In this document: one piece after another, positions 25,801-63,813 of the stretch
Layout of the letters: the number at the start of each line of letters is the position of its first letter
How positions within the stretch are numbered: the stretch's first letter is position 1
Source: Azolla caroliniana
Taxonomy: Eukaryota > Plantae > Polypodiophyta
Direction: 5' to 3'
NCBI GenBank assembly: GCA_043228905.1
Contig: JBHGNT010000011.1
Location: forward strand, 5,890,001 to 5,954,000
Length of the DNA stretch: 64,000 bases
Program-made: the position numbers and the translations under genes
Notes under the pieces: generated by a model
Seen by the model: the letters and a program-made list of their open reading frames with translations, nothing else
What the model was told of the DNA's origin: nothing
Database searches by the model: none

Positions 25801-25890
25801 CGAACCTCCGGAACGTGTCTGACATCCTTCAGCAGCAAGTTGCATCCGGTTGGTGTTGACAGCCACACGTCTCCTATGCCGACAATTTGG

Positions 25891-35777: not shown

Positions 35778-38700
35778 TGTTGAGAGACAAGCTCAACATC
35801 GGCCGGATCGGCTGAAGAAGCCGAGGACCGGATCAGTTGGGACCGATCGGTTAGGCCGTTAGGAAAGATATTCCGTGAGGAATATATTTGGGAGTTAGTG
35901 TAGTAGCTCTTAATGAGCATTGAAGTAATGTCAGTACTTCGGTCAGTCCTTCTAGGACTTGTACAAAGTGTTCATTGAACACATATATGTATTGTTGTTT
36001 TTTTCTTGAATATAACTTTCTTGTGTCTTCTCTCTCACCCTCTCCATCTCTCCCGCATATACTGTGTAAGCTCAAGCCCTCCATTAAACCTGAGTTTCCT
36101 TCCTTCTGTTCGGTCTTCATACTTGCTTCCCGATGCTACTTTTTACATGGTATCAGAGCGCAAGGGTTGAGAACCTCTCTGCAGCCGATACAGCTTGACG
36201 AAGAAGAACAAGAAGAACGATGGATAGAGGCATGGCGAGCTCGCTTCCAACAGAGAAGCTCGACAGAACCAACTACGCATCTTGGTCCTACAAGATGCAC
36301 CAGTACCTGCTCGAACACGGCTACTGGAGTTATGTCGAAGGAGCTAACGACGCGGCACCCGTATCGACACACAGAGACTTCCCATCGTGGGAGCAATCGG
36401 CGAGCAGGGTATTATACTGCTTCGCGTCGTGTGGGGGCGAACAGCTATTGAGCTATGTTCGGGATGCAAAGACGCCGAAGGGTGTGTGGGAAAATCTAAA
36501 GAAGATTTTCGCCGCGAGCACCACAGCTACGAAGCTTCAGCTCCGACAGGAGTTGAGCAACCTACGACAACGCGACTTGTCAGTGGCGGACTATACCTCG
36601 AAGATCAAGGATATCTGCAACTCCCTCGCCTCCATAGAGGTGAACATGGAGGAGAGCGAGATGGTCCAGATCTGTCTCGGAGGTTTGGCATCGAAGTTCG
36701 GAGCATTCCGAACGGTTGTGTGTACCCAGGAGAATACCCCGTCCTTTTTCGACTTACAGTCAATGCTCCTGGTAGAGGAGAACCACGCGGGTGCGTCTAC
36801 AAGCACGCACACCGACAACCAAATGTTGTACACAGAGGGAGATAGGCCTTGTGGACGTGGAGGACGAGGCGAGTCGGCGCGCAATGGAGGCGGCTGACGA
36901 GATCAAGGAAGAAGGCACCGAAGTGATGCCGACAGCAACTCCGGACCCTCTTGAAACAGGGGGAGTCGAAGCGATGAGAACCGGCAAGGGAAGGCCATCG
37001 CGGAGTGCTGGTACTATGGCAAGAAAGGCCACAGGGAAAGTGAGTGCTGCAAGAAGCGCGCCGATTCGGAGAGAACCGGTTCCGGAAACGGCTCCGGACA
37101 TACCGACAACGGAAATCGGCAGCGATCGCACTACGCCGAAGACTCTGGGAGAGCCGGAGAATGGTCTGTCTTCGTGACGAGACACGAAGCAAACTCAATG
37201 AAACGGACCACCCCGCGATCGGACGAGGTGTGGTAGGTAGACTCCGGCGCGTCAAACCACATGACGAGCCATATGGAGTGGTTCTCGTACCTTGCAAAAC
37301 CGATACAACCTGGAGCAGTCGCAACTGGAGACGACACTCCACATCCGATCGCGAATGTCGGAGAAGTTCCCCTTAGCCATGTCAGGCAGAATTTTGTGAA
37401 GCCTGCCAGCTCAGGAAGCAACACCGACTTCCTTTCCCCAACGAGCGAAACCGGAGCCGGAACAAGCTCGACCTTATACACTCCGATGTATGGGGGCCGG
37501 CACAAAACGTTAGTCTTGCCGGGAGCCGATATTTCGTCTTCTTCATCGACGACCACACGCGGCACACGTGGATCTACCTCATTGAGAGGAAGAGTGAAGT
37601 CTTTGATTGTTTCCAGGACCTCAAAGGGTTCGTGGAAACGGAAACGGGACGAAAGATCAAGTGCTTGTGGTCGGATTGCGGGAAAGAGTACTTTTCTGGT
37701 CAATTCAACGGTTATCTACAACAAATGGGAATTCGGCGCGAATTCAGTTGTAGATACACGCAGGAGCAGAACGGCGTGGCCGAGAGGAAGAATCGGTCAG
37801 TTGTGGAAGCGGCACGGGCAATGCTGGAGGAGAAGCGCTTGCCCAAGTTCTACTGGGCCGAGGCGGTAAGGACTGCGGTATACATCCAGAACCGGATCGG
37901 AGACAAAGTGTCGTTGCACGAGCTATATTTCGGAACGAAGCCGAACTTGCGACACTTGAGGGTGTTCGATAGCATTGCGTATGTGCATTTACCGAAAGAG
38001 AAAAGGAGGAAGCTGGACACAAAGGCCGAGAAATGCATCTTGGTCAGTTACTTGGACAAGTAGAAGGGTTATAAGTGCTATAACGCTCGCACCAAACAAG
38101 CGTGTGTCAGCCGCGACGTTGTGTTTGACGAGTCCGCGTCCTGGTACCTGCCCCCGACTCCGAACCCTGCCCCCAATCCGAGCTTTGACGATGAGGTCAG
38201 CGAAGCCGAGATGCCTCCGGATGAGCCCGAAATCGAGACCCGCAAAGAGAGTCCGATTTCACTCCGTTTAAGTGGACCGATTGGACGACTGTGTCCGTAC
38301 GATCAGTCCGATGAAGAGCCGGCGAATAGTGGAGACTCGGCCGTGCATTCCCCGCGCAGGAAGCTGAGGAGACGGCTTACGCACAAAGAGAAAGGGAAGA
38401 AGAAGGTGTCGGATTCCGGCACGGATAGGAACGAGCCAGACCGACGCGAGTCCGACTCCGAGGGAACCAGTGACGGGTCTTTAAAAGTGAAGTCCGCGTC
38501 GACCGAGAAGGCCTCGACATTGGCTAATGCGAGATTACGCCGATCTACCCGCTAGAAGAATCCTATTTCGCGGTTCGGATACAACGAGTACATGGCGTAT
38601 CATTATGCGTACATGACCCGTGTAGCGGAAGTGCGTGAGCGAGAGAGCTACGCAGAAGCGGCTAAAGACGCGACTTGGCATGCCGCGATGGTGAAAGAGA

Positions 38701-41028
38701 TGCACGCATTGGCGGAGAACGAGACCTGCGACCTGGTTGACGCACCAAGAGGGGTAAAACCGATCGGGTATAGGTGGGTGTACAAAGTCAACCGGTACAA
38801 GGCTTGGCTAGTGGCAAAGGGCTTCACGCAGAAACACGGCATCGACTACGATGAGACATTTGCGCCAGTCGCGAAAATGACGACCGTCCGGATTTTGCTC
38901 ACAGTAGCCACGGCCAAGGGGTGGCACCTACATCAAATGGATGTAAACAATGCGTTCCTGCAAGGTGACCTTGAGGAACAGGTGTACATGGTACAGCCCC
39001 CCGGATTTCACTCCGGAACGAACTCCTCGGCAGTATGCCGATTGAAGAAGTCCCTTTACGGATTGAAGCAAGCCCTGCGTGCCTGGAACGCGAAGATCAC
39101 GCAACAACTGAGTGGGATGGGCTTCATCACGACAAAATTGGACCCTTCCCTATTCATCCGGAAAGGTCAACTCGGACCGGTTAGTATTTTACTATATGTT
39201 GATGATGTGGTCATCACCGGCGCCGACCTAGGTGAAATCGACCGCGTGAAGCTCCAGCTTGCAGCATCGTTCGACATGAAGGATATGGGGGACCTTCATT
39301 AATTCCTCGGGATCGAAGTGATATGTACCCCCGAAGGCATATTGATCAGCCAACTTCATTACGTGTTGGGTATGCTCTTCAAACTCGGGATGGCCGACTG
39401 TAAGTCCATCTCGACTCCTCTGGACAGAACCGTCAAGCTTCGTCCTGATACAGGAAAGGTATGCGACCTGACGAGGTTCCGACAAATTGTCGGAAGCCTC
39501 ATATACTTGACCATCACCCGACCCGACCTCAGTTATCTGGTTGGGGTGATCAGTCAGTTCATGGCGCGACCTACCGAGCACCTTCAGTGTGCGCAACGCA
39601 TACTGCAGTACGTAAGCGACACTAAGGACCGCGGACTGCTATATCGGACCGGTGCAGTCGCGGAGTTAGTCAGCTACACCGATGCTGATTGGGCTGGCAT
39701 CGCCGCCGATCGCCGATCCACGTCCGGATACGCGTTCTCCCTCGAGAGTGTCGCGATCGCGTAGAGCAATAAGAAGCAGCCGACAATTGCCTTGTGGAGC
39801 ACTGAAGCTGAGTACCGAGGAGCGGCTGCCGCGACATGCAAAGCCATATGGTTGAAGCGACTACTTAAGGACCTGCAAGAGGAGGTGTCAGATCCGACGA
39901 CGATCTACTGCGACAACCTCAGCAGCATCCAGCTCGGGAAGAACCCCGTTTTCCATGCATTGACCAAGCACATTGAGGTGCACTACCATTTCGTCCGTGA
40001 GCATGTCCTTTCCGGTGAAGTTGAACTTCAGTATGTTCCGACGGATCGGCAGATTGCCGACATCGTCACCAAGCCTCTTGGTCTGGACAAGTTGCGGCAA
40101 TTCTCAGGTGCGCTCGGATTGCGTCACCTCGACGTGCCAAACTTGAGGGGGAGAACAGTCCCGAATGACCAAGCAAGGCAGCAGGAAAGGAGCGGAGACC
40201 ACGACACCGAGTCGGTTGTCGAGTTCGACTTCGGATCGGCTGAAGAAGCCGAGGACAGACCCGCGGAAAAGTCCGGAAGCGGACAGAAGGGGAGCAGCCG
40301 AAGGAGAGAGCCGAAGCCAACCACGCATGGAGAAGATGACGCCATCGAAGACGAGTTGGAGACAGCCAACTCGAACGAGAGAGAAAACCGATCGGAGGTA
40401 GCCGAGTCGGTTCGGATGTTTGATTCAGACACGTTGAATCAGCCGAGGCCCAAGCGGAAGAAAAGGCAGCAGAAGAAGTGTCGACACCGCAACAGTAGAA
40501 GAGCTGATAAGGGCCACATGAGCAGACAAGCCGACCAGAAGGGTCGAAGCGCGCGGAGTTGAACAGGTCGAGGAGCGCGAGCGAGGCGTGAAGCCAGGTG
40601 GAACAGGAGCTGTGAGCCCAAAGATCCCGAAGAGCCTCAAGTTGAGCTTGAGGGGGAGTGTTGAGAGACAAGCTCAACATCGGTCGGATCGTCTGAAGAA
40701 GCCGAGGACCGGATCGGTTGGGACCAATCGGTTAGGCCGTTAGGAAAGATATTCCGTGAGGAATATATTTGGGAGTTAGTGTAGGAGCTCTTAATGAGCA
40801 TTGAAGTACTGTCAGTACTTCGGTCAGTCCTTCTAGGACTTGTACAAAGTGTTCATTGAACACATATATGTATTGTTGTTTTTTTCTTGAATATAACTTT
40901 CTTGTGTCTTCTCTCTCACCCTCTCCGTCTCTCCCGCATATACTGTGTAAGCTCAAGCTCTCCATTAAACCTGAGTTTCCTTCCTTCTGTTCGGTCTTCA
41001 GACTTGCTTCCGCACGCTACTTTTTACA
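35778..41028 (+). mobile_element. Ty1/copia family C element (degenerate, internal deletion)
   Basis: LTRs 35778-36147 and 40659-41028, TSD GGGTC/GGGCC, PBS 36148-36159; gag, IN, RT and RH with stops; deletion at ~37390. Confidence 0.93.
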
Positions 41029-42715
41029 GGGCCGCATGGTCGCTCATGCCCGTTCGTGTTCCTGTTCCCGGTGAGGGCCTCACAGGGCCTCACACCTGTT
41101 GATATTTGTGTTCCAATCCTACGCGAGGACAACACATGGTCGCTCATGCCTGTTGGTGTCAAATACCTCGTCTTGTGGAAGGGTTACTCCTTGGAAGGAT
41201 TTACAAAATACTTTTGAGGTGATCTAAGATTTTCATCAACAATATCCCCTAAAGCCGACAAACGATTTGGGAAGGCATCATTGGAGGGGGGATAATGTCA
41301 TGATTCGAACTCTTGGCATGACCAAGTTATAATCGAATGTTATGTGTTAACCACACATCTAACATACAATCATGTATAGACTTCCTCATTGTAGGTTTTA
41401 GCTAGCATCATGTGCATAATTTCTCCCTTGTATTATTTACACTTGGCACATGCATGCGTACCTACTGCCTACATGCTCTATTGTATCACATGCGTGCAAC
41501 AGGTATGCATGCCACTTAGTATAAATAGTTGAGTTCACCTTGAAGGAATTCAAGGTGAACAACGCCAGTCATGGACATATCAATCTAGTATTCTCATTTC
41601 GCCCATCTTCTCTCCTTAATCTTCATCTCTATCTTTATGCTCTTGTGTCATTCCATCATCGCTCCATCGTAGCCTCATCATCCGTGCTCTGTCTTAGTCC
41701 GCATTTGGTGTGTCCGTGACAACGGGACTGATCTGCTTCCGTGTACAGCATCCAGCTATCAATGGGTGCGCTAGTTGACGCACCGGCGTGGTTCTCCTCT
41801 ACAAGGAGCATCGACTATATGTCGAAAAATGACGGTGTATTCTCCCTTGGATATACCGCCGTTTGGAACGCTCTGAACTTCGACGCCCGGCCCCCAAGAC
41901 AGACCTGTACCATCTCGTCTTCCTCTGCGGTAACGTTGATAGAGGCAAGCGAGTCACAGATCTCTTTGATCCGGGCCGTGTAATCCGCCACCGACATGTC
42001 CTTCAGTCGGACATTGCTCAACTCTTGTCGGAGTTGCAGCTTCCGGGCTGTAGTGCTCGCGGTGAAAACCTTCTTCAGGTTTCCCCAAGCCTCCTTCGGC
42101 GTCTTGGTGTCTTGGATGTGGCTCAACAACCGGTCTCCGACACTGGATGCGAAGCCGTACATCACTCTGCTTGCCGATTGTTCCCACACTGGGAAATCCT
42201 TATGTGTTGCATAAGGTGTTGTTTCGTTAGCTCCTTTGATGAAACTCCATTAGCCATGCCCAAGCAGGTACTGGTGCATCTTGTACGACCAAGATGTGTA
42301 ATTGGATCTATCGAGTTTCTCCACAGGGAGCGAGCTAGCCATTCCTCTATCCATCACTTCTCTGTCTGTTGTTCTTACGACCTATTAGGGTTTTCTTTCA
42401 AGCGTTTGTTGGCTGCAGAGGTTCTCAACCCTCTCGCTCTGATACCATGTAAACGATTACTTGCGGAAGAGTTAGAAAACAGAGAAAGTAGAGAATACAC
42501 AGAGTACACAGGAGAGACAGAGAGAGTAGAACGTAAAAGTTATATTCAAAACAATATAAACACTTTGTGTATACAACTATGCTCAGTAGCACAATTTATA
42601 CAAGTCCTCATGGGATTGACAAAAGTACCGTGTACATCAATGCTCACACGAGCATCTGACACTTACTACGAGACTATAACTGCCTAGTTAGTCTAAACTA
42701 ATACTAGGCTTCCGG

Positions 42716-47286: not shown

Positions 47287-48208
47287 AGATATTTAGTTGA
47301 AATTATATTTCTATCATCGTACTTTTACATGTAAATTCTTATGCATGAGAGCTAAAATGAGTGACATGGGGTGAAAGCATGAGAGTGGAAACAATTAGCT
47401 ATGTCCTTGACATAGCTAATTAGCTATGCAAAAAGCTACCATTGATAAATAGTCATTTTAGCAAAAAACCATCATTAATAAATTAACTATGCAAAAAACT
47501 ACCATTGAAAATACTAGAGTGTTTTAATTACATATGTAAATGAGCACCATAAATGTGCAACATAAACGTGCAACATAAATTGATATGTGCACCATAAATG
47601 TGTACCATAAATTATATATCGAATTCCTAAGTCCATTATGCATGATCCTTTGCCACATCACGTAGGCCATCTCTAGTTGAGTATTGTGGGTTAGTTGCTA
47701 CCACTGTTGCTAAACCCTATCGAGTCCACCTGCCGCCACTCTACACTCAGTGGGCCGCTACTGTGAAGGTCGTGTATTGCTGCCACTTTTCGACCCAATG
47801 GCGTTAACAACTCCACTGCCGCCATTCTACTCTCAGTTGCCTTCTCTGTGCGTTCCAAGCATCATCGGTAATTGTTCAATCTGACGGGGTTCTCTCCTCC
47901 ATTGCCATCACTCTACACTCAGTTGCCGCTATTGTCCAGTCCTGGATTGCTTCCACATTTTGATTTGACGGAGTTCACTCATCCAACGGCAACATTCTAC
48001 ACTCAGTTGTCGCCATTGGTTGGTCCTAAATCGCCTCCTCAACTCTTCGATCCAACGGAGTGAACTCCTCAATTTTTCGGTCTTGGATTGCAATAATTTT
48101 TCTATTTATTGATTATCTTGTGTATTGTTGTGTCTAATCTTGTGTATTGTTGTTGCCCATAGCCATCTTAAATACTTGTTTTTTTTTCTGGAAATTTAGG
48201 GTTTTAAT

Positions 48209-51200
48209 ATGTCCAGCCAAATGGAAGGGGAAGAAGGGTGTTTAGAATTACCCCTCAATGATCATAAGGATAGGGATGATGCTATTAGGACACAACAAGC
48301 CATACGAAACTATTGGGCAGAAAAAAAAAGGAAACATCATCAATTGTTGAAGGATACAAAAGCCACACTCAGCAAAGGTAAGGATAGTTTAGCTGAGAAT
48401 GTAAGTAATGCGACTACCATCATAGAGAGAAAGGTTGTAGACTATTTCAATGTTCAAACCAAGCACATTAGCAATGAAAAAAAGAAGATAGTACTTTATG
48501 GAATATTAAATGATCCATCGATAAAGGACTTAGTTGATTGTGATGGTCTTAATGCAAACATATCATCTATTTTAGTAAATAATCTTCATAATAGTTTCGT
48601 ATCCATGAGCAGGTCAGAAGATGATCTTGTCTTAAAAAGGTCTAGTCTAATGATGTTACTTAATAATGATGTTGACGATGTAAACATCAGTGAGCTATCT
48701 AAGGTAATTGGTGTTAGTAGAAAAATAGTGTACAATACATTGAACCGTATAATTTCCTTGGGTGAAGGAACTAGTCTACTAAAGCTAACTACAAGATGTA
48801 AGCCAATGACAACCATAACATCAGAAATCAAGGATGTAATCACAATGTTTTGGACTAATGAGAGTAGGGTTTCACCCAATAAAAAGGATTTATGCAAGAA
48901 AAGTATTGGAAGAAATCAATACGAGGAGCATCCCATTCATCTTCTTGATGTACCTCAGGTATTTACATTTATCTCAACATTTGTTTTGACTGTACACGGA
49001 AAGTTAATTAGCTCAGTTAGCAGAAAAGCTAATTAGCTTATTAGTTACATTTACCTCAGTTAGCTACTAGGATAGCTACTACATAGGTAATTGGCTACTC
49101 TCAATAGCTACTACCATGATAGCTAATTAGCTATTCTCAATAGCTAATTTAGTTACTACCAGATAATTAGCTACCAAAATAGCTAACTAGCTACCATGAT
49201 AGCTAATTAGCTATTCTCAATAGCTAATTTAGTTACTACCAAATAATTAGCTACCAAAATAGCTAATTAGCTTTTAGGATAGCTAATTAGCTATTAGAAT
49301 AGGGTTTTAGCTACCATGATAGCCAAATAGCTACTAGAATAGCTAATTAGAATAGCTAATTAGCTAATTAGCTATTAGAATAGGTAATTACCTACCATGA
49401 TAGCTAATTAGCTACTATGATATTTAGCTACTCTAGTTATTACCAGCTAATTAGCTACTAGGACAACTAATTAGCTACTAGGATAGCTAATTTCGTTATT
49501 ACTAGCTAATTAACTACTATGAAAGTTAATTAGCTACCTTGATAGCTAATTAGCTACTAGGACAGCTAATTAGCCACCATGATAGCTAATTAGCTACTAG
49601 ACTAGCTAATTAGCTACCATGATAGTTAGTTAGCTACTAGGACAGCTAATTAGCTATCGTGATAGCTAATTAGCTACTAGAATAGCTAATTAGCTACTAG
49701 AATGGCTAATTAGCTACTAGAATAGCTAATTAGCTACCATGATAGCTAATTAGCTACTAGAACAACTAATTAGCTACTAGAATAGTTAGCTAGTTACAAG
49801 AATAACTAATTCCCCTTTATTACGCAGGTTGATTTATTTGTTAGGTTCAAACGAATGCATCCAAATATCAAAGTTCAACTACGAACATTCAAGTCTCTTA
49901 AGCCACACTTTGTGAGACGCTTAAAGGATCGATACACATGTTGTTGCATTTACCATGTACAGATGGGTTTTCTAAAGGACTCTGTTAATCTACTACGTCA
50001 CCATAGCGCATCCCTAACTAATACAGTTTTCACATGTGGGTGCCCAATCTGCCGATCAAGCCCGCAAGAGGAGTGTAAATCATTTGAGCACGTTATCTCT
50101 TCCATGAGTTATTTATTAGATTCAATATTGTGTCCGAGAGAAACTGACGCTATCTTCCATAGTCATAAATGTGTCATGGGTTTATGTCAAGATTGTGGCC
50201 CTACTAGATTTAGGTGGTGTCCAAATGAATTGAGTAGTGAAATATTGATCTTTGTGAAGTTATTTGAGTCAATGAACACCAATTTCGAAGGAAAGGTGTG
50301 TAAAAGAAAGGATCTAGTTCGGAAGATGCTTAAACCAAGGGATTTGGTGTCTCTGTTTGTAGTATCTCTAGGAAAGTTCATTAAACACAACTTCATTTAC
50401 TCATGGCAGGCCCATCAGTTTAAGACTTGCATATTTGATTTCCCAAATGATGTAGTAGTCTCAATAGTAGATTTCGTAGAGAATTATACTTTCAAGCAGA
50501 AGAATGAAATTCAATCTATGCATTGGTGTTCAGTTCAGGTAACCATTCTTGTGCACATAACATATTTTCGAGTTTCAGGTGATGTTAAAAAAGTAATTCA
50601 TTTCTTTATTTCTGATAATAAGAAGCATGATACCTTGTTCGTCCAACAGTGTTTTAAGTTACATTGGCAGTGGTTATTAGCTCAACGTTTGGAGCTTACT
50701 CAACATTGGGTCTGGTTTGACGGAGCTGCGTCACAATTCAAGGCTCGACATCCATTTTATTTTGTGGGGAGGTATCCTGCTATAACAGGTTTGGAGATGA
50801 GATGGAATTTTTTTGGGTCTGGCCATGGTAAAGGTGAACATGATGGTGCAGGGGTTGTTATAAAGCAGGCACTTACCCATGAACAACTAAAGACAGATGG
50901 CGTGCACATGAATTGTGCATCACATGTAGTTGAATTTTTAAGAACAAATATGTCAACGAGTGCAACAGGTGTTTATTCCTCGCAAGTCCGAGATATCAAA
51001 CGTGAATTTTGGGAAGTGAAGATAGATGAAGTAAATAGGGAGAAGACCTGGGAGTGCCAAGGAATTCCCGAATTGTGATCTCTGCATGTTGTTCACGGTT
51101 ATTCCAGGTTAGATGGTCATTGTATTGCGGTTAGAGAATTGACTTGTGTTTGCTTCCATTGTGTGCAGGGAAATTGGAGATATTGTCTAAACAAAGCATA

Positions 51201-51669
51201 CATTCAGAATTGGGAGTATCACACTCTGAATGATAAGGAAGCAGTTGATGGAGAAACAGGGCAGAATGCTGACTTCACATATGAGGGACTTGGAGATACT
51301 TTGAGTGATGTCCTGAACGTTGGGGATAACTTCGTTGTAAATGCTAAAGAAGGCAATTCAGAGGGTGCTGATTTCTATATATTGAAGTGCACGGTTAGTA
51401 AACAGTGTGCAAGGCAGAATATTGTAGATGCATGGGGAAATTTTGTATCTGTCGGGACATTCTACATCGAAGGCATTTTTTATGCAAAACTAGATGACTA
51501 CGAATATGTGTACAGGCTGTTAGAAGACAAACCAGCGGCGTACATGTACTCTCATTTGGTCAGGTGCATCAACGTCCCAATGTCAGAATACAATAGTTGC
51601 TCAGGTTTATACACTGTTGGTGCTAATGTGTATGAATGTATTTACAATAGTATGCCATGGAATTTGTAG
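48209..51669 (+). pseudogene. Spliced Sola2-type transposase (~860 aa; exons 48209-48958 and 49828-51669; one in-frame TGA at 51076-51078)
   Basis: Phase-0 GT-AG intron joins ...LLDVPQ to VDLFVRFKRMHPNIKV; motifs CCCIYH, DFVENY, WFDGAASQFK, WNFFGSGHGKGEHDGAG, CVCFHC. Confidence 0.82.
49020..49800. repeat. Array of palindromic TAGCTAATTAGCTA units (~21-bp period) filling the transposase intron
   Basis: Dozens of copies; the same motif occurs at 47395-47430, 51770-51855, 53909-53985, ~58060 and 60675-60727. Confidence 0.92.
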
Positions 51670-52192
51670 CTACAAGTAGCAATTACCATGTTCTCTTGTA
51701 AAACAAACATGTATTTCGCGAAAACAGTTAAATAAATTTGTTTGAGAATCAATTTCTTGTATACAGCCAGTAGCTAATTAGCTGTCAGTAGCTAATTAAC
51801 TGTTAGTAGCTAAATAGTCATCAGTAGCTAATTAGTTGTACATATGCAGCTAATTAGTTGTCAATAGAACCATGTACAACAGTATGCCATGGAACTTGTA
51901 GCTACAAGTAGCAATTACCATCTTTTCGTGTAAAACAAACATGTATTTCGAAAATACAGTTAAATAAAGCACTAGCATGAAATCAACAATCTGCAACATA
52001 TTCCTCAAATTACACAGTAGATAAGTACAATGGGAACAAGTAATTAAATTCTTCATTGAATAATGTCATCTCTTTACATATTTATAAATTACCATTGGAA
52101 ATGTCTACAAATCTCCTATAAACAACTAAGCTCTTGCTAGTCAGTGGAACGAGTCTACATATATTATCTGCATATCGAGCTCGGTATGGAGT

Positions 52193-53176
52193 CTACAACC
52201 ATGCACCTAGTTGGCAGCTCACTATTTGCACCAGGTACTGTTCAGGCATTTCCTCGAGTAGAATGAGACAACATCTTTGAATATTGAAGTAGTGCCGGAA
52301 TTGTTCTGTATCCAAAATCAATGTGTTTTCGGCATTATATTCAGGCCAAGTAGCCCAAAAATCAAAAAGTCTCTTGAATCTTGCAACTTCCATTTGCTCA
52401 CAATTTTCTCGTGGCCATTGACCTTTAAAATGACTTCACCATTTTGGGAAGAATCTCGCTAAACACTTCCACACATCTGATTTTGGTTTTTCACTCCAAA
52501 TAAACAAATCAAAGTATTGCCAATCCCACTCTAGAAATTGATTCGCGTCCCTCCTTGGCTGCATATATCTCACACTCATCAAGACTTTATCAAGCTCCAA
52601 GATCAAGGCTCTTCTTTCGACTTCTAGCGGTTTAGGTTTCCATTCCTGAAAATGAGCCGTTGTTACACCATTTTCTGGTAGGACACGATCAATCTCAATT
52701 AGCTCAGGTTCCTCCAACACAATTGGCGTCCTTTTCCTCTTCAAACCCCTAGTCGACTGTGTTGGTCCTGGCTTCACATTTTGGTGCTCTTGTTTTGTCG
52801 ACTTAGTTATCAATCCTTGGATTACCTCGGTGCATGTAGCTACTGATCTGCTCGATATCAGTCCACTGGTATCACATGTTGCATCTATCTGCAACAACAA
52901 GTCATCCGTGCAACATGTTGCACCTACCTGCAACATCAAGTCATCCGTGCAACATGCTTGATCAACTTGTGTGACCAGATCACTTGTGTCAGTTGCTACA
53001 TCTACTTTCAAGATGGGGCCCTTTAAACACGCCGCAACATCAACAGTATCCATAGTGCCATCGGCCTTACGAGCAATAGAATCAAACCCTTTAGACTCTG
53101 CAACATCAGAAAACACCAACATATTCACACTCACAAAGTAACTAATAGTCTCACAAAACAACATAATGAACATCAA
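52193..53176 (-). pseudogene. FCP1/NIF (HAD)-like phosphatase-fold coding region with a degenerate catalytic motif
   Basis: RRALILELDKVL...PRRDANQFLEW...FDLFIWS, an in-frame TGA, then WPRENC...FKRLFDFWATWPEYNAENTLILD. This follows the FCP1/UBLCP1 motif order, with DxDxT replaced by ELDKV. Confidence 0.6.
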
Positions 53177-53986
53177 AGAGTTTCAGTCATAGAACAACAC
53201 TCTTCAAATTATCTTGGAAAAACATCATAGAGTTCCATTACATAATGTGGATCAAGCAACAACCAATCTGAGGTTTTACTTGTCCAACAGGATAGTAAAA
53301 CTTCATAAAACCCTAGCAAAATCCCTAAGCTAACAATCATATCAAACTAAACAGTATTTCGCTCCACTACGTCTAGGACCCTTGACCGAGTAACTGGTCT
53401 TGTTCCCGATCGTGGCCCCTTCTTCAGCCTTTTTCTAGTCGGTTGCCCATTTAGCCTTGCTTCTTTCACCAATGCGCAAGTGTGTCCTCCTCCGACAACC
53501 TTCCCATCGCCTCAGCAACTAATTGCACATCAGTTGTTTCTTGCGCTAGCTTTTCAAGTACAGAGGGATCTGTTTGGACATTTTCAGTAGTTGGGCTCGG
53601 TGGGGTGGAATCAAGGTCTTGAGATTCGAAGAAATGTTGCATCAAGTGTTCAAAAACACTCTTGTTGTGAACCTCAGTTTGACATGTTGTTTCCACTATT
53701 TCATGGCATTTCACATTGTTGCCTAATTTAGTACAATGTTCCAAAAGAATAGGGTGGAGCTTATCTGAAGGAGATGTGATAGCAGGACTCTTACTTTCAG
53801 CCACGTTGGCAACTATCTCCTCATTTGTTGCAGCGTCATCAGCACCAGACACATCATGTGTCGTCCTTAATCCACAAGATTCTACAATAACATGGCAACT
53901 ATTTAGGATAGCTAATTAGCTACTTTACTAAACTATGGTAGTAGCTAGGATAGCTAATTAGCTAGTACGACAGCTAATTAGCTACT

Positions 53987-56900
53987 TGTTGAGAGACAAG
54001 CTCAACATCGGCCGGATCGGCTGAAGAAGCCGAGGATCGGATTGGTTGGGACCGATCGATTAGGCCGAATGCGTAAACCGGTACGCAGACCGGTGTGTAG
54101 GTAGGGCTGGATCGGTGCGTAAACCGGGAGGCCGTTAGGGAAGATATTCCATCAGGAATATATTTGGGAGTTAGTGTAGGAGCTCTTAATGAGCATTGAA
54201 GTACTGTCAGTACTTCGGTCAGTCCTTCTAGGACTTGTATAAAAGTGTTCATTGAACACACATATGTATAGAGTGTGGTGAATAGAGATTGTGTATTTTT
54301 TTTAATATACCTCTTGTGTTTCTCTCTCTCTCTCTGTCTCCCTCGCGTATACTGCGTGAGCTCAAGCTCTCCTTTAAACCTGAGTTTTCTTCCTTCTGTT
54401 CGGTCTTCATACTTGCTTCCGCACGTTACTTTTTACATGGTATCAGAGCGTGAGGTTTGAGAACCTCTCTACAGCCGACACAGCTTGACGAAGAAGAACA
54501 AGAAGAACGATGGATAGAGGCATGGCGAGCTCGCTTCCAACAGAGAAGCTCGATAGAACCAACTACACGTCTTGGTCCTACAAGATGCACCAGTACGTGC
54601 TCGGGCACGGCTACTAGAGTTATGTCGAAGGAGCTAATGACGCAGCACCCGAATCGACACACAGAGACTTTCCGTCGTGGGAGCAATCAGCGAGCAGGGT
54701 ATTATACTGCTTCGCGTCGTGTGTGGGCGAACAACTATTGAGCTATGTTCGGGATGCAAAGACGCCAAAGGGTGCGTGGGAAAATCTGAAGAAGATTTTC
54801 GCCGCGAGCACCACAACTAGGAAGCTTCAGCTCCGACAGGAGTTGAGCAACCTACGACAACGCGACTTGTCGGTGGCGGACTATACCTCAAAGATCAAGG
54901 ATATCTGCGACTCCCTCGCCTCCATAGAGGTGAACATCGAGGAGAGCGAGATGGTCCAGATTTGTCTCGGAGGTTTGGCGTCGAAGTTCGGAGCGTTCCA
55001 AACGGCTGTGTGTACCCAGGAGAATACGCCGTCCTTTTTCGACTTACAGGCAATGCTCCTGGTAGAGGAGAACCACGTGGGTGCGTCTACAAGCACGCAC
55101 ACCGACAACAGAATGCTGTACACGGAGGGAGATAGTCTCCGCGGACGTGGAGGACGAGGCGAGTCGACGCACAATGGAGGTGGCCGACGAGATCAAGGAA
55201 GAAGGCACCGAAGTGATGCCGACAGCAACTCCGAACCCTCCGAAAACTAGGGGAGTCGAAGCGATGAGAACTGGCAAGGGAAGGAAATTGCGGAGTGCTG
55301 GTACTGTGGCAAGAAAGGCCACAGGGAAAGTGAGTGCTGGAAGAAGCGCGCCGATTCGGAGAGAACCGGTTCCGGAAACAGCTTCGGACATACCAACAAG
55401 CGAAATCGGCAGCGATCGCACTACGCCGAAGACTCCGGGAGAGCCGGAGAAGGGTCTGCCTTCGTGACGAGACACGAAACAAACTCAATGAAACGGACCA
55501 CCCCGAGATCGGATGAGGTGTGGTACGTAGACTCCGGCGCGTCAAACCACATGACGAGCCATAAGGAGTGGTTCTCGTACCTTGAAAAACCGATACAACC
55601 TGGAGTAGTCGCAACTAGAGACGACACTCCACATCCGATCGCGAATGTCGGAGAAGTTCCCCTTAGCCATGTCGGGCAGAAAGGGAAACTCATGAACGTG
55701 TTGCACGTTCCGACAATCCCGAAGAACTTGGTCTCAGTCGGACAGATCGTCGACCAAGGGATGGAGGTTCGGTTTACACACCTCGGGTGCTTCATTGAGG
55801 AAGAAGGCCATGTGATTGCGCAAGGGTGCAGAGACGGGAGGATGTTCATCCTCGATTCCACTGACGGCGGCACCGCAATGTTCGCGAAGGGACAAATATC
55901 CGAGTCGGACATCGACTTGTGGCACAAGCGGATAGGCCACGTCAACTACCAGCGGCTTCAAGATCTGCAATCGAAACAGGTAGTGTTCGGATTGCCCAAA
56001 TTTAGTGGCCAAAAGGCACAAATTTGTGAAGCCTGCCAGCTCGGGAAGCAACACCGACTTCCTTTCCCCAACGAGCGAAACCGGAGCCGGAACAAGCTCG
56101 ACCTTATACACTCCGATGTATGGGGGCCGGCACAAAACGTTAGTCTTGGCGGGAGCCGATATTTCGTCTCCTTCATCGACGACCACACGCGGCACACGTG
56201 GATCTACCTCATTGAGAGGACGAGCGAAGTCTTCGACTGTTTCCGGGACCTCAAAGGGTTCGTGGAAACAGAAACAGGACGAAAGATCAAGTGCCTGCGG
56301 TCGGATGGCGGGAAAGAGTACTTTTCTGGTCAATTCAACGGTTATCTACAACAAATGGGAATTCGGCGCGAATTCAGTTGTAGATACACGCCAGAGCAGA
56401 ACGGCGTGGCCGAGAGGAAGAATCGGTCAGTTGTGGAAGCGGCACGACCAATGCTGGAGGAGAAGAGCTTGCCCAAGTTCTACTGGGCCTAGGCGGTAAG
56501 GACCGCGGTATACATCCAGAACCGGATCGGAGACAGAGTGTCAGCGCACGAACTATATTTCGGAACGAAGCCGAACTTGCGACACTTGAGGGTGTTCGGT
56601 AGCATTGCGTATGTGCATGTACCGAAGGAGAAAAGGAGGAAGCTAGACGCAAAGGCCGAGAAATGCATCTTGGTCGGTTACTCGGACGAGCAGAAGGGTT
56701 ATAAGTGTTATAACCCTCGCACCAAACAAGCGCGTGTTAACCATGACGTTGTGTTTGACGAGTCCGCATCCTGGTACCAGCCCCCAACTCCGAACCCCGA
56801 CTCCAATCCGAGTTCTGACGATGAGGTCAGTGAGGCCGAGATGCCTCCGGATGAGCCCGAAATCGAGACCCGCAAAGAGAGTCCGATTTCACTCCGTTTA

Positions 56901-58052
56901 AGTGGACCGATTGGACGACTGTGTCGGTACGATCAGTCCGATGAAGAGCCGGCGAGTAGTGGAGACTCGGTCGTGCATTCCCCGCGCAGGAAGTCGAGGA
57001 GATGGCTTACGCGCAAAGAGAAAGGGAAGAAGAAGGTGTTGGATTCCGACACGGATAAGAATGAGTCAGACCGACGCGAGTCCGACTCTGAGGGAACCGG
57101 TGACGGGTCTTTAAAGGTGAAGACCGCGTCGACCGAGAAGGCCTCGACATCGGCTAATGTGAGATTACGTCGATCTACCCGCCAGAAGAATCCTGTTTTG
57201 CGGTTCGGATACAACGAGTACATGGCGCATCATTATGCATACATGACCCGTGTAGCGGAAGTGCATGAGCCGGAGAGCTACGCAGAAGCAGCTAAAGACG
57301 CGAATTGGCGTTCCGTGATGGAGGAAGAGATGCACGAATTGGCGGAGAACGAGACCTGGGACCTGGTTGACGCACCAACAGGGGTAAAACCGATCGGGTG
57401 TAGGTGGGTGTACAAGGTCAAGTAGAACACCGATGGCTCGGTCAACCGGTACAAGGCTCGGCTAGTGGCAAAGGGCTACGCGCAGAAACACGACATCAAC
57501 TACGATGAGACGTTTGCGCCGGTCACGAAAATGACGACCGTCCGTGTTTTGCTCACAGTAGCTGCGGTGAAGGGGTGGCACTTACATCAGATGGATGTAA
57601 AGAATGCGTTCCTACAAGGTGACCTTGAGGAACAGGTGTACATGGTACAGTCCCCCGGATTTCACTCTAGAATGAACTCCTCGGCAGTATACCGATTGAA
57701 GAAGTCCCTTTACGGACTGAAGCAAGCCCCGCGTGCCTGGAACGCGAAGATCACGCAACAACTGCGTCGGATGGGCTTCGTCACGTCAAAATCGGACTCT
57801 TCCCTGTTCATCCGGAAAGGTCGACTCGGACCGGTTAGTATTTTACTATATGTTGATGACTTGGTCATCGCCGGCACCGACCTAGGTGAAATCGACCGCG
57901 TGAAGCTCCAGCTTGCGGCATCGTTCGACATGAAGCATCTGGGGGACCTTCATTACTTCCTCGGGATCGAAGTGATCCGTACCCCCGAAGGCATATTGAT
58001 CAGCCAACGTCATTACGTGCTGAGTATGCTCTTCAAATTCGGGATGGCCGAC
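53987..58052 (+). mobile_element. 3'-truncated Ty1/copia family C element in an intron of the accessory gene
   Basis: 5' LTR 53987-54437, PBS, gag-PR-IN-RT; breaks off in RT at ...GGATGGCCGAC; no 3' LTR or TSD. Confidence 0.92.
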
Positions 58053-59439
58053 AACTTATTAGCTACAGTATGGTATACCTGTTAGTTTTCTCCACTCATT
58101 TGGTAGAGCTGTACTGCAATCTCCCAAACAGAATTCAGCAATTCGACAGGCATATTGAAAACAAAGCAGATGGTATGTGTGGTTGCATGGTTGTAGGTGA
58201 ACCAACAAAGACGCAGTTTTGTCCTCCACACCTAACCCGCAAGTGATGCAACATGCTTGAACTGTCAATAAATCATTTTCTGGTTCTCCTTCATTTGGCA
58301 AGGGAGCAAGAATTTTTAGGTCCAAATCCTGTCTGCTCCTTACCATTCCCTCCACAAAATGTAGCTGCTTCTTAAGGTAGCTAACTACCTGTTCTTGATT
58401 AATGTATTGTTCCTTCAACGCAACAGAGAAATTTACCAATTAATTATTCCTGTTTGAGAAAGATACACCAACTTTGCTCAAGAATCGTTAACTTACTTGA
58501 AGCTTTTCCAAATTGTAATCTGCAACAGTATTTACACCTAGAAGGTCCAGGTTCATTGAAAGAACCTGGATCTCTATTTGCAGTTGTATTTTACGCTAGG
58601 GATCCAGTGGCCCCTCTAATTCAAGCTCCTATTGCGCAACCTATTCCAGATAATTCTTGATTAGCACATTTTACCCTTAAAGTTATTTATAACACAATCA
58701 CATACGAGCAAAACAATAGTTACCTGAATCTTATTTCTAATCGTTGTAATAGCTAAAGTAACTTTGCTCTCCATTGTAGAAGCCATTGTGGCTTTCTCTA
58801 AATCAGTCTTAAAAAATGCCAATGTCTCACAGGCTTCATGGACATTTTTTAGCATATAGCTAACCAATGTCTCACCTGTAACATCGACATTGGCTTTCCT
58901 TGGGTGTCGGCGTGGTGTATGCCCCCGGTTTTGCTGGGAGTCGGCAGTTGCATCAACAGCTGCCATGCTCCAAAATCTGTCTATTTTTTGTGCCAAGGTC
59001 CCCATCTTTCGGCATCTTTCTACCGATGCCTCACCATAGACTGCCCAAGCTACTCTATACATTTCAGGGTCTTTGGATTCCTTCGTTATTTTGCAGTACT
59101 CATATGCAAATGCTCTAGCAAATGAAACTGACAACTCATTGTTGACTGGGATCTCCTGATGAACTTTCTGGTGCAGCCTCATGCAGTCATCATACAAGTT
59201 GGCTCGTACATGCTTCAGCTTGACCTTGCCTTTGACTCTAGGCACTGTATATACTGTCATCCAGTCTACATCACTGATCAATTTATCACTTAGGACAGCA
59301 GGGTCAACACCCTCAAGTGACAGACCATAGGTGTTGTGGAAGTCCTCCTTTGTCTCGCAAAATTTTGCGAAGTTTAGCACTCTCGGATACGGAGGAACGA
59401 GCCATCTGAAATATCAAATCAGAAATTAGAAATAGTGCA

Positions 59440-60205
59440 AAATCAGAATATGTCAGAATCAGAAACCCCAATCAACAACAACAGAAATAGTGCAAAATCA
59501 TTAACCTAGCAAATCAGAAACCCCTTTCAGAAATTGCAATCAGATATTTGTAAACAGAAACCCTAATCATAATTTGTATTCAGAAATTTGAAATCAGAAA
59601 CCCTAATCAAAATATGTAATCAAAAGTTTGTAACTAGAAACCCTATTCAGAAATTCTAATCAGAAATTTATAATAAAAAACCCTAATAAGAAATTTTAAT
59701 CAGAAACCATAATCAAAAAATTGTAACCAGAAACAAAAACCCTAATCATAATTTGTATTCAGAAATTTGAAATCAGAAACCCTAATCAAAATCTGTAATC
59801 AGAAGTTTGAAATTAGAAACCCTAATCAAAATCTATAATCAGAAGTTTGTAACCAGAAACCCTATTCAGAAATTCTAATCAGAAATTTATAATCAAAAAC
59901 CCTAATAAGAAATTTCAATCACAAACCCTAATCAGAAATTTCAATCACAAAACCTAATCAAAAATTCTAATCAAAAATTTTTAAACAAAAACCCTATTCA
60001 GAAATTCTAATCAAAAATTCTAATCTGTAATCAAAATTTGTAACCAGAAACCCTATTAAGAAATTCTAATAAAAAATTTATAATCAAAAACCCTAATCAG
60101 AAATTTCAATCAAAAACCCTAATCAGAAATTTCAATCACAAACCCTAATCAGAAATTTATAAACAAAAACGCTAATCAGAAATTTCAATCAGAAACCCCA
60201 ATCAT
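59440..60205. repeat. AT-rich minisatellite with AAACCCTAAT (telo-box-like) cores, within predicted intron 59406-60249
   Basis: Many AGAAACCCTAATCAGAAATTT variants at ~20-30 bp spacing. Confidence 0.85.
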
Positions 60206-61134
60206 CACTAAAGATAGGATTAAAAACAAAAAAAGTAATATAAACACACCTGCTGCTACTCCCCGATCTGCGAGACATCCTTGTATGGGACTCCAAGGAC
60301 TTCACCCTATTCGATTTTGGGGAAATATGAATCGGCACCAAAGTTCAGACAATAATAAAAAAGAAAAAACAAATGTTTGGGGTTTCTGTAACTGAAACAT
60401 ACCTGGACGATGATTGAGCGGGTTCTATGTTGTAGCTCTGAATCTCCAATGTCGATTTTCTGCTACTGCGGGAGCTATGTCTGCGTTCGTGCTCTGAGTA
60501 CTCCATCTGCGTTCAAAATCAAACTTAGGCTAAACAGGAAATTGATGACATTGAAGTCGACCTTAGATGATGGTGTTATTCCCCAAGTTCCACTACGTCT
60601 GAAACAGAAGTTCAAATATTTGAGTTTTTTCATAAATTAGTTTTTCAAATATTTGATTTTCCCACAAAAAAGACTAGCTAAACAAATAGCTAATTAGCTA
60701 TGGCCATTTTAGTAGCTAATTAGCTATAATAGTGTTTCCACTCGCATGCTTTTACCCCATGGTCATCATGCACCACATGTAATACACGAGCGCCAAATGG
60801 CAAACATGCATCATATGCATGGGGGCATCTATAAAAGGATAGATGAAAATGTATTATGGATCCATGTATGAACTAAGAAATTAATGAGAAGAAAATTCAT
60901 TGATGATATATCTTGTTTCTTAAATCAAGAGTTAAAATCTTAATCTCAATATCTCTCTCTTGGCCATATCAATCTTTCTCAATCTAAGTCAAGCATTTAA
61001 TCTTAATCTCTTTCTCTCTCTCAATCTATCCTAAATACTTTCTCGCTAAGCTTGGTGCGAACTTTGATCCTTCCGGTCCAGAACCCCGGCAGTTCCGCCT
61101 CGCGATCCGCGCCTAGTGATGGATCTTCACGACA

Positions 61135-63813
61135 CCGTGCGTGATGTACAATGTTTTCTTGCATTTGCAAATTTTTATCGGAAATTCATTAAAAATTATT
61201 CCAAGGTCGTGCTTCTGCTCACCCGACTCACACAGAAAAATCAACCATTCAAATGGAATTTAGAGGCGACTGAGGTGTTCGAAAGTTTAAAATGAGCATT
61301 TACAACAACACCTATTTTGGCTCATGTTGATCCCAAGCAACGCTTCATCCTTGAAGCTGATGCATTCGACTTTGCATTAGGAAGTGTTCTATCACAAACT
61401 GTTACTCCTAGGGCCGGACAACAGCCTAACACAGGGTGTCCACTTAAGACACTTCACCAAAGGGTGGTACGACAGAATGACTTACGGCACAACGCTTAAT
61501 TAGACCTTAATCGATTACTTAGCAACACATTCTTAACACGCGTAAGATATAACAATGAGTACAAAACAGTAATAAATACTGAAGGATTAAGGCAATAAGT
61601 TCTATTAATTATCCGCTCTCGATTACATTGTAACCGGGCCTTTATATAGGTCTCCGGTGCGAAATACAAAACGGTGCCAACCGGCACCTTTTCGGGATTG
61701 GTCTAGATCCGGATTGGCATACCGATTCCGGTCCGTCCGTCCACTTCTTTTCATATATTAATATATATATTAAGACTACTAATTACAATAGTTCCTGAAT
61801 AAACTATTCCTTTTCACACTCTGGTTTGGACCTCCTTAAGACTTCTTGCCAGCCGGTAACACAAACTAGAGATCACAGGCAGCTACATCCTATTGCTTTT
61901 CATTCCCGAAAATTCGAAGCTGCAGAGATTAACTACGAGATCCATGACAAAGAGCATCTGGCAATTGTGGATTCTTTTCAACAATGGCAATATTTTCTGG
62001 AAGGTTCTTCTCAGCAGATAATTGTCTACAATGATCACAAGAACTTAACATATTTCCAAAATGCTCGAGTCTTAAGTTGGCGACAAGCCCGTTGGGCGCA
62101 GTTTTTGACTCACTTCGACTTCGTAATCATATATCGCCCAAGGATGCAACAAGGAAAAGCGGATGCTCTTTCTCGACGCTCTTATATGGAACTTCATCCA
62201 GGAGAACCAGCTTTTGAGCATAAAAAACAAATCCTTTTGGGCCCAAATCGCCTACGAGTTATGGCAGTCAATTCCATAGTCACACCTAGGGATTCCACTC
62301 TTCTTGATTCCATTCGAGATCATATGGCTATTGATGTGTTCGCGAAAGAAGTTTTAGATCATATCATCCCGGATCGTGCTTCTTGCTCGAAGTCGCAAAA
62401 CCCTCGTACTGACTATAGGCAGTTCTATTGGCATGATGGTTTTCTGTTTCGACAAAACCTTCTGTATGTACCTGATGGTTTTCTGTTTGCAAGTCTTACA
62501 ACATTGTCATGATACTCCAATGGTTGGACATTTTGGAGTAGCCAAAACTCTAGAATTAGTTTCTCGGCGATATTAGTGGCCTCGACTTCGTCATTTTGTG
62601 GAGGAGTATGTCCAAAGTTGTGATACATGTGGTCGATCAAAGAGTCCTCGACACCAATCATATGGGTTACTACTACCACTTCCAATTCCTGAAAATCCGT
62701 GGAAGTCTATATCCTTGGATTTCATTATCGATCTCCCAGTTTCGAGGGGTTTTGATACCATTTTGACAATGGTCAATCGACTTACCAAAATGGCACATTT
62801 TTTGCCATGTACAAAGTCTATTACGAGTCAAGAGACAGACGATCTAGTTATGCGAGAGGTAATCAAGCATCATGGTCTCCCAGACGATATTATCAGTGAT
62901 CAAGGTCCACAATTCATCTCAAAGTTTTGGAAGCACATGTTAAAACTTCTCCGAGTTTCGGCTAAGCTTTCTTCGGGCTATCATCCAGAGACTAATGGCC
63001 AAACCGAGCGTACCAACCAAACTTTGGAGCAGTATCTTCGTTGTTTCATCAACTATCAACAGGATGATTGGGTTGATTTTCTACTCTTGGCTGAATTCGC
63101 TTATAACAACTCCATCCACTCGTCTACAAGATATTCTCCATTTTTCGCAAATACTGGTTCTTATCGTCGTTGGACAATGATTGAACACCCCGGAGTTCCT
63201 CTCAACCCTGCTGCTGTGGATCATCTCAGTTGTCTCCAAGAAGTTCACGCTACCATTCTCCACAATTTGCGTGATGCCCAAAGTACTTACAAGAGGATTG
63301 CGGACCGTCATCGCCTAGACTCCTCAGAAATGTTTCAGGTCGGGGATCGTGTATGGCTTCTACAACACAACATCAAGACCACTCGGCCTTGTGGTAAATT
63401 AGATTACCAACGGTTCGGCCCGTACGAGATCACTGGTAAGATAAGCGATGTTGCATTTCGTCTTCACCTCCCTCACATGCATCTTCATCCCGTGTTTCAT
63501 GTCTCCCTTCTCGAACCTTACATCACAAGTTTGATTCCGGGCCGTCTTACAACTCCCCCGCCACCGATAGAGTTTTTGGAAGGACCAGAATTTGAGGTTG
63601 CGGCCATTCTCAATTCCAAGATCGTGCGCAACAAGTTGTATTACTTGGTCGATTGGTTAGGCTATACACCCAATGATCGAACTTGGGAACCTGCTGAAAA
63701 TCTTGTCAATGTTGTGGACATGGTCACCGAATTTCATCGACAATATCCTCATAAGCCCGGTCTTAGTTCAACCCATGTGACCCGTGATACGGGTCGTCGA
63801 AGAAGGGGGATAG
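61135..63813 (+). pseudogene. pol: Chromovirus RT C-terminus, RNaseH, integrase and chromodomain
   Basis: [85 protein letters not shown]...YYLVDWLGYTPNDRTWEP. Confidence 0.95.
61400..61861. repeat. Solo LTR (462 bp)
   Basis: TGTTACT...GGTAACA with perfect TSD CAAAC; RNaseH frame resumes. Confidence 0.92.

What the first reader, a model, noticed from the sequence alone, without database searches (positions are those of the whole stretch)
47369..60757. Large Sola2-like DNA transposon carrying RING and pseudo-phosphatase accessory genes (top candidate new system)
Seen: 25-bp TIRs, GGG/CCC ends, CATG TSD, spliced ~860-aa DDD transposase, and convergent coding sequence with a RING-H2 finger and an FCP1/NIF-like domain; ~9.3 kb without the nested copia. 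Known (from recall): Sola2 elements have GRG/CYC termini and 4-bp TSDs and were described mainly from animals and protists as single-gene elements. Inference: a plant Sola2 lineage with a dedicated accessory module (ubiquitin ligase plus phospho-binding decoy), possibly anti-silencing in the way VANC serves VANDAL elements.
Basis: partly seen in the sequence, partly recalled or inferred. Interest (0 to 1): 0.85.

Follow-up and report, generated by a model that had tools for sequence, protein, structure and literature searches.

The report
Plant Sola2 transposon with RING-ligase gene
This is a broken copy of a many-copy jumping gene, likely from a fern, that carries opposite its transposase one passenger gene predicted to join an undescribed domain, a ubiquitin-ligase-type RING finger and a likely inactive phosphatase domain; parts of that gene sit in the same place in distant plant relatives, and the protein would likely bind short palindromes repeated in the element's non-coding DNA to help it escape silencing.

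Summary
The element is real: 23/25 terminal inverted repeats, CATG on both flanks, and a two-exon 863-codon transposase with Sola2 motifs. This copy is dead (stops, a frameshift, a truncated copia), so 9.3 kb is a minimum length. The RING and FCP1/NIF pieces are not separate genes but one convergent multi-exon gene: unknown domain X, coiled coil, RING-H2, acidic/basic linker, NIF domain without the DxDxT motif. It is not a one-off capture. Its read depth is 0.6-0.85 of the transposase's. In 80 related loci, 23 of 24 profile hits lie downstream on the opposite strand and none upstream. Domain X has dN/dS 0.26 in one pair. The core is X plus RING; NIF is optional. Domain X folds confidently (pLDDT 96) and has no Pfam family. 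A 14-bp palindrome occurs 26 times, only in non-coding parts, as VANC targets do. Sola2 in plants and Sola elements with second genes (Fanzor, ParB-methylase) are already in print; this passenger was not found in 10 searches. Anti-silencing is my best mechanism (about 0.4) and is untested. Verdict: new variant of a known kind.

The parts
47365..47368 (.). Left 4-bp target-site duplication CATG (self-complementary)
47369..47393 (+). Left TIR, 25 bp, starts GGG
   Evidence: 23/25 match to right TIR
48209..48958 (+). Transposase exon 1 (250 aa, weak HTH match)
   Evidence: HTH_11 E 4.5e-4; 93% to L001
48959..49827 (+). Transposase intron (GT..AG, predicted) holding a 20-bp-period array of the 14-bp palindrome (19 copies at up to 1 mismatch)
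   Evidence: no RNA laid on this stretch
49828..51669 (+). Transposase exon 2 with Sola2-type DDD core; in-frame stop at 51076-51078, open in other copies
51670..52081 (.). Spacer between the convergent genes, with palindrome repeats at about 51765-51860
52082..53097 (-). Accessory gene, last exon: linker with basic patch, then NIF/FCP1-like domain with ELDKV in place of DxDxT; stops at 52436-38 and 52193-95 in this copy
53371..53881 (-). Accessory gene, predicted acidic/basic linker exon (3' border uncertain); frameshift near 53468 in this copy
   Evidence: table 4; phase fits the RING exon
53897..53986 (.). Palindrome repeats in the accessory intron, cut by the copia insertion
   Evidence: (table 7)
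53987..58052 (+). Nested copia fragment: 5' LTR 53987-54437, gag, protease, integrase, part of RT; no 3' LTR; not part of the transposon family
58079..58640 (-). Accessory gene exon: coiled coil and RING-H2; four in-frame stops in this copy
   Evidence: (splice)
58641..58723 (-). 83-bp intron, skipped in one contig of a run guessed to be RNA
   Evidence: table 5
58724..59405 (-). Accessory gene exon: domain X (about 150 aa, no Pfam family) and start of the coiled coil
59406..60249 (-). Accessory intron (predicted) with a second, 13/40-bp-period tandem array
60250..60506 (-). Two predicted short 5' exons (60506-60403 with ATG, 60306-60250), Ser/Arg-rich, phases fit; no RNA support
60733..60757 (-). 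Right TIR, 25 bp; palindrome copies lie just inside it (60680-60727)
60758..60761 (.). Right target-site duplication CATG

Best explanation
This is a decayed copy of a many-copy Sola2 DNA transposon whose family carries, facing the transposase gene, one conserved accessory gene (domain X, coiled coil, RING-H2, charged linker, optional NIF domain lacking the catalytic motif); its product likely binds, through domain X, the family's own palindrome arrays in introns and near the ends, and would use the RING to ubiquitinate host silencing or chromatin proteins there, keeping the element expressible. Shown: element boundaries, Sola2 motifs, one-gene architecture, linkage across divergent families, purifying selection in one pair, array placement, loss of DxDxT. 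Inferred: nuclear location (basic tails), DNA binding by domain X, dimerisation by the coiled coil, E3 activity, the target, and a role of NIF as a binder of phosphorylated proteins such as the Pol II tail.
For: One gene: X, RING and NIF occur in that order in 31 of 31 relatives holding all three; the window's exons splice in phase; P0172 (X+RING+NIF) is 79% identical over 159 aa to the convergent ORF of L008. Constancy: summed depth over accessory exons is 0.74/0.85 (run X1) and 0.60/0.68 (run X2) of that over the transposase (the tool warns this is no copy number). Linkage: with profiles built without any locus sequence, 9 of 9 hits in 80 loci are downstream on the minus strand; with iterated profiles 23 of 24; none in 230 kb upstream. 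Domain X of the divergent loci is homologous (hhalign 95.8%, E 7.7e-9). Selection: L015/L018 dN/dS 0.26 for X, 0.40 for the coiled-coil part, 0.65 for the linker. Arrays: 26 of 26 palindrome copies lie in non-coding parts of the element, none in exons, copia or 50.6 kb of flank; relatives have different arrays in the same intron. This is the pattern reported for VANC targets (PMC5735166 passages).
Against: No test of DNA binding or ligase activity. Domain X matches no known DNA-binding family in Pfam, and its pI ranges from 5.2 to 9.5 (median 8.3, 37 sequences). The element is CpG-poor (o/e 0.08-0.73) against about 1 for its neighbours, so the family has likely been methylated for a long time. 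RING matches are below Pfam cut-offs, the last cysteine pair is spaced x3-x4, and only 22 of 58 RING hits keep the first six ligands (many are decayed gene models). No RING was found in L015/L018. The intron motif recurs beyond the transposase in only 4 of 14 related loci; 3 have no repeated 9-mer. Transposases alone can activate their own elements (preprint 10.64898/2026.08.24.746577, passages), so the arrays may be transposase sites. 6 of 14 locus groups with 4 kb or more downstream show no accessory hit.
Confidence: 0.42

Rival explanations
1. The accessory protein is a transposition cofactor like maize MURB: it binds the transposase and helps integration or targeting, and the arrays are transposase binding sites.
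For: Convergent two-gene layout; MURA-MURB binding is shown in PMC12973397 (passages). Palindromes also lie just inside both TIRs. The transposase has an HTH-like exon 1.
Against: Most palindromes lie 1.6-6.6 kb inside the element, in introns. One subclade with intact transposases shows no such gene within 3-5 kb (L028, L032, L054), so it is not needed for transposition as such.
Confidence: 0.25
2. The RING protein limits the element: it ubiquitinates its own transposase or represses its promoter through the arrays, so that the family spreads without harming the host.
For: RING plus coiled coil plus a recognition domain is a usual substrate-directed ligase layout (established knowledge). The element is CpG-poor, as a silenced family would be.
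Against: No evidence on the substrate; a self-limiting gene would be lost easily, yet it is kept across deep branches of the transposase tree.
Confidence: 0.15
3. The protein acts globally on the host, for example by degrading a silencing factor or masking phosphorylated Pol II tails everywhere, without reading the element's DNA; the arrays are by-products of slippage.
For: NIF domains are related to Pol II tail phosphatases (established knowledge) and here lack DxDxT. Arrays are absent or unlinked in several families.
Against: NIF is missing from the nearest families L002 and L003 and from the divergent loci. One motif is spread over five separate non-coding parts of this element, which slippage alone explains poorly.
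Confidence: 0.13
4. The passenger is a captured host gene fragment without function for the element (Pack-type capture).
For: The copy in the window is broken in many places; many relatives are partial gene models.
Against: Depth close to the transposase's; same position and strand in families down to about 30% transposase identity; dN/dS below 1; open frames of 347-389 aa at 65-90% identity with in-frame indels; 77 related gene models in one fern genome.
Confidence: 0.04

Closest known systems
Sola2 group of the Sola superfamily (Repbase; alignment in the supplement of PMC3627910; Bao et al. 2009 not held, recalled only)
   Same: Motifs DF.ENY..Q.EIQS.HW..Q.TI, SDD..HD, SDG.A.QFK, FF.SGHGK..DG.G; N-terminal S...P.KK..V..R motif and Cys cluster; short TIRs; 4-bp TSD.
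   Different: Carries a second gene, a large intron with palindrome arrays, and a TSD that is not AT-rich.
Sola2-Fanzor1 chimeras of Dictyostelium and Polysphondylium (PMC3627910, passages)
   Same: Sola2 transposase, 12-13 kb, a second spliced gene inside short TIRs, 4-bp TSD.
   Different: The passenger is a Fanzor nuclease, unrelated to X-RING-NIF.
Sola1-1_Ec32 of Ectocarpus (PMC12477816, passages)
   Same: Large Sola element with an accessory gene on the strand opposite the transposase, proposed to bind and modify its own DNA.
   Different: Sola1, not Sola2; the passenger is ParB plus DNA methyltransferase; no RING or NIF is mentioned in the passages seen.
VANDAL/VANC of Arabidopsis (PMC5735166, passages)
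   Same: Accessory gene; family-specific short motifs in tandem arrays in introns, intergenic and terminal regions; conserved domains plus a variable linker.
   Different: Mutator superfamily; no Pfam match to DUF1985 or PMD here; VANC function is shown by experiment, this one is not; here the motif is a palindrome and a RING is present.
MuDR MURA/MURB of maize (PMC12973397, passages)
   Same: Transposase and accessory protein in one element (convergent layout recalled).
   Different: Different superfamily; no sequence likeness tested; MURB binds the transposase.
Giant Plavaka elements with PAG1-3 (10.1101/2025.02.11.637652, passages)
   Same: Accessory genes beside arrays of inverted repeats, proposed self-binding.
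   Different: EnSpm superfamily; ParB, methylase, SET and oxygenase domains.

Membership tests
Sola2 DNA transposons | DDD transposase with the Sola2 motif set, unlike Sola1 and Sola3 | tested here: met
   By-eye match to the Repbase Sola2 alignment; the first-motif consensus of the Sola1 and Sola3 profiles differs (parts 56 and 70 of the PMC5751038 supplement); animal relatives at E 5e-21 to 4e-9. No formal score against those profiles.
Sola2 DNA transposons | 4-bp target-site duplication | tested here: met
   CATG on both flanks; it is self-complementary and seen at one site only; dictyostelid Sola2 TSDs are AT-rich.
Sola2 DNA transposons | Terminal inverted repeats; GRG termini (recalled) | tested here: met
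   25 bp, GGG..CCC; the GRG rule is recalled, its source was not held.
Sola2 DNA transposons | Groups with Repbase Sola2 in a tree against Sola1/Sola3 | not testable with these tools
   Reference sequences could not be loaded; the tree holds only search hits.
VANC-type anti-silencing system | Family-specific motif arrays in non-coding parts of the element | tested here: met
   26 of 26 copies non-coding; only partly so in relatives.
VANC-type anti-silencing system | Homology to VANC (DUF1985) or PMD proteins | tested here: not met
   No such Pfam hit in 12, 58 and 23 proteins scanned. This lowers 'is a VANC', not 'works like one'.
VANC-type anti-silencing system | Binds the motif and lowers methylation of cognate elements | not testable with these tools
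   Needs binding assays and methylomes.
RING-H2 E3 ligase | C3H2C3 ligand pattern | tested here: met
   C-x2-C..C-x-H-x2-H-x2-C..C-x3-C in the window; Pfam RING E 1e-4 to 1e-2 in relatives, under cut-off.
RING-H2 E3 ligase | E2 binding and ubiquitin transfer | not testable with these tools
   No eukaryotic E2 reference is offered.
Active FCP1/SCP (NIF) phosphatase | DxDx(T/V) motif I | tested here: not met
   DLNGVL in 45, ELDKVL in 4, EIDKVF in 1 of 50 relatives in which the motif could be read; ELDKVL in the window.
ParB-methylase accessory genes of Sola1/Plavaka | ParB-like fold plus methyltransferase domain | tested here: inconclusive
   No Pfam hit to either; a family not listed in the fold searches is not excluded.

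The most novel reading that the evidence does not exclude
Land-plant Sola2 elements carry an old, undescribed class of DNA-targeted ubiquitin ligase: domain X is a new sequence-reading fold that co-evolves with each family's palindrome array and brings a RING, and in some fern-like families a dead CTD phosphatase, to the element's own chromatin. It would be a third route to transposon self-protection beside VANC and ParB-methylase, and hundreds of 'hypothetical' fern gene models would be its copies.
Probability: 0.35. Interest if true: 0.85.

Novelty: new variant of a known kind. Interest (0 to 1): 0.62.

Why it matters
Few transposon accessory proteins have a known function, and by the Bostrychia preprint VANC is the only one shown to bind and modify its own element. 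A conserved passenger with a ligase-type RING, a confidently predicted domain of no known family and a ready candidate binding motif makes a direct test possible of whether transposons use targeted ubiquitination against silencing. It also matters for annotation: 77 of 77 hits of one family are 'hypothetical protein' models of the fern Adiantum nelumboides, which are likely transposon genes counted as host genes.

Tried and rejected
No genome is held for the window, so TIR-bounded copies could not be collected. Cluster look-up could not be made. Viral contigs: 16 pattern matches, 0 relatives. Fold searches for domain X gave nothing usable: Foldseek PDB and BFVD no E below 0.001; VIA on the 227-aa model found only coiled coils, on the 156-aa model best Z 2.4, 7 of 48,161 chains at Z 2 or more; a missing match does not show a new fold. 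ESM Atlas: no usable hit for two queries. PDB sequence searches: coiled coils only for A2, nothing for NIF or the transposase. Homodimer prediction of X plus coil: no verdict, score 0.00, alignment not used. TIR search in loci: one weak candidate in L077 of 80, not recovered by blastn in 31 loci listed, so the accessory gene is shown inside TIRs only in the window. L042 has a same-strand coiled-coil-RING gene whose N-terminus does not match X. No RNA holder listed. A 75-nt skip at 52646-52720 in run X20 rests on 35 letters of a diverged contig and was not used. dN/dS for L005/L008 and window/L002, L003 is saturated. One search returned the wrong supplement (a Mariner alignment). Two separate accessory genes: rejected. 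Intact nested copia: rejected.
Full report
Observation. The ends are as described: 25-bp inverted repeats at 47369 and 60757 with 23 matches, GGG/CCC ends and CATG on both flanks. About 0.012 such pairs are expected by chance in the window. Two exons (48209-48958, 49828-51669) give an 863-codon transposase with a stop at codon 667. Other copies are open there. The surroundings are mostly nested LTR retrotransposons. The copia inside the element has only its 5' LTR and stops within RT at 58052, where two sister copies in the window go on. DNA runs show more palindrome repeats after 53986 in other copies, so 9,323 bp is a minimum.

Transposase. A search found 51 relatives, among them a 93% identical open protein, gene models of the liverwort Calypogeia, Taxus and Adiantum, and distant animal proteins. 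Its motifs match the Repbase Sola2 alignment in the supplement of PMC3627910 and differ from the start of the Sola1 and Sola3 profiles in the supplement of PMC5751038. This comparison was by eye. The host is likely a fern, since the named relatives of the accessory protein are fern gene models; this is inference.

The passenger is one gene. The minus-strand ORF at 58724-59405 has no Pfam family but 135 relatives. Long relatives carry RING and NIF after it, in the order X, RING, NIF in 31 of 31 that hold all three. Of 44 relatives of 300 aa or more, 4 have all three, 7 X+RING, 2 X+NIF and 31 X only, so many models are partial or chimeric. The window's exons join in phase from a predicted ATG at 60506 through the RING, and the phase fits the next exon beyond the copia. 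One contig of a run guessed to be RNA, from another organism code, skips 58641-58723 with minus-strand GT-AG ends; this is the only splice seen. The NIF domain passes Pfam's cut-off in close relatives but lacks DxDxT: ELDKV in this family, DLNGV in others. This copy has several private lesions.

It is part of the family. In two DNA runs the summed contig depth over the accessory exons is 0.60-0.85 of that over the transposase, and both are roughly a thousand times the depth of single long contigs; the tool warns that this is no copy number. One family of the protein has 77 gene models in Adiantum nelumboides, 72-100% identical; their genomic context was not visible. I fetched the best 80 of 260 loci with related transposases, which fall into 41 groups. 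With profiles made only from the window and protein hits, 9 of 9 hits lie downstream on the opposite strand (6 groups). With iterated profiles, which include locus sequences and are partly circular, 23 of 24 do (11 groups), none lies in 230 kb upstream, and reversed ORFs give no X hit and two weak RING hits. Among groups with 4 kb or more downstream, 3 of 14 (first profiles) or 8 of 14 (iterated) have a hit. Four of the six without are decayed copies with 3-6 stops in the transposase core; the other two, with L028, form a subclade near the Taxus protein with intact transposases and no such gene in 3-5 kb. Domain X of the divergent loci is homologous to the window's (hhalign 95.8%). The two nearest families (L002, L003; 56-57% transposase identity) have a convergent gene ending in an acidic-basic tail without NIF, so NIF is optional. 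In the one pair suited to it, dN/dS is 0.26 for X, 0.40 for the coiled-coil part and 0.65 for the linker. TIRs could not be fixed in the related loci.

Domain X and the arrays. Domain X folds with pLDDT 95.6 and pTM 0.89 into a mainly helical domain; searches for its fold are listed under Tried and rejected. A 14-bp palindrome occurs 26 times at up to one mismatch: 19 in the transposase intron, 3 in the accessory intron, 1 between the genes, 3 near the ends, and never in exons, copia or flanks. Related families have other arrays in the same intron. The intron motif recurs beyond the transposase clearly in 4 of 14 related loci, and 3 show no repeated 9-mer. The element is CpG-poor against its neighbours.

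Mechanism. The layout suggests a recognition domain, a dimerising coil, a RING and an optional phospho-binding module, with basic tails for nuclear import. Together with arrays placed as VANC targets are (PMC5735166), the most likely reading is a self-targeted anti-silencing ligase (0.42). Every functional step is inferred. The rivals are a MURB-like cofactor (0.25), a self-limiting ligase (0.15), a global host effector (0.13) and functionless capture (0.04). That the gene is a dedicated, selected part of these elements I put at about 0.9.

What is known. Sola is reported in moss and ferns, and Sola2 in cypress. Sola elements with second genes are in print. Ten full-text searches showed no paper on a RING or NIF passenger in Sola2. 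Seen as passages only: PMC3627910, PMC10741241, 10.64898/2026.07.23.736688, PMC6786969, 10.1101/2021.09.26.461848, PMC5735166, PMC12973397, 10.64898/2026.08.24.746577, PMC12477816, PMC5751038, 10.1101/2025.02.11.637652, PMC4455052 and PMC12501142. Supplements seen in part: PMC3627910 and PMC5751038. Bao et al. 2009 was not held and is recalled only. Repbase and the cypress preprint's supplements were not visible and may already hold this architecture. Earlier notes of this scan describe other plant Sola elements with palindrome arrays and ParB-type passengers; they are leads, not support, and one led me to the Ectocarpus paper.

Verdict. A real Sola2 element with a conserved accessory gene of a kind I could not find described; a new variant of a known kind; interest 0.62.

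Noticed in passing
window 35778-41031: A sister copia with both LTRs (96.5% alike), about 92% identical to the nested fragment; it is itself nested in another LTR element (34803-35227 / 41296-41721).
   Followed up: partly
window 3193-8515 and 25891-31220: Two copies (96.7% identical) of a 5.3-kb LTR element with LTRs about 99% alike, so recent; a third partial copy lies inverted at 22722-25886.
   Followed up: no
window 47731-48041: Three degenerate 84-86-bp repeats upstream of the transposase ATG, richer in GC than the rest of the element; possibly promoter or 5' UTR.
   Followed up: no
window 51640-51736 and 51872-51968: A 97-bp direct repeat (91%) that duplicates the end of the transposase gene and brackets the spacer palindromes.
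   Followed up: no
window 50991-51153 joined to 52443-52762 (run X19, record 3): An 803-nt contig joins a transposase piece to a NIF piece: an internally deleted relative, again linking the two genes.
   Followed up: no
L042:3658-4917 (+): A coiled-coil plus RING-H2 gene right after a Sola2 transposase but on the same strand, with an N-terminus that does not match domain X.
   Followed up: partly
P0048: An animal-type Sola2 transposase fused to a Ulp1 SUMO-protease domain (E 9e-12): a second link between Sola2 and ubiquitin-like pathways.
   Followed up: partly
L003:7600-8892: The convergent gene there has tandemly repeated short exons and introns, as described for VANC genes.
   Followed up: no
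L054:5703-6020 (+): A short frame that looks like a cullin fragment (recalled likeness, not tested) downstream of a transposase without the accessory gene.
   Followed up: no
window 61068-62512: Gypsy-type RT/RNase H fragments just right of the element.
   Followed up: partly
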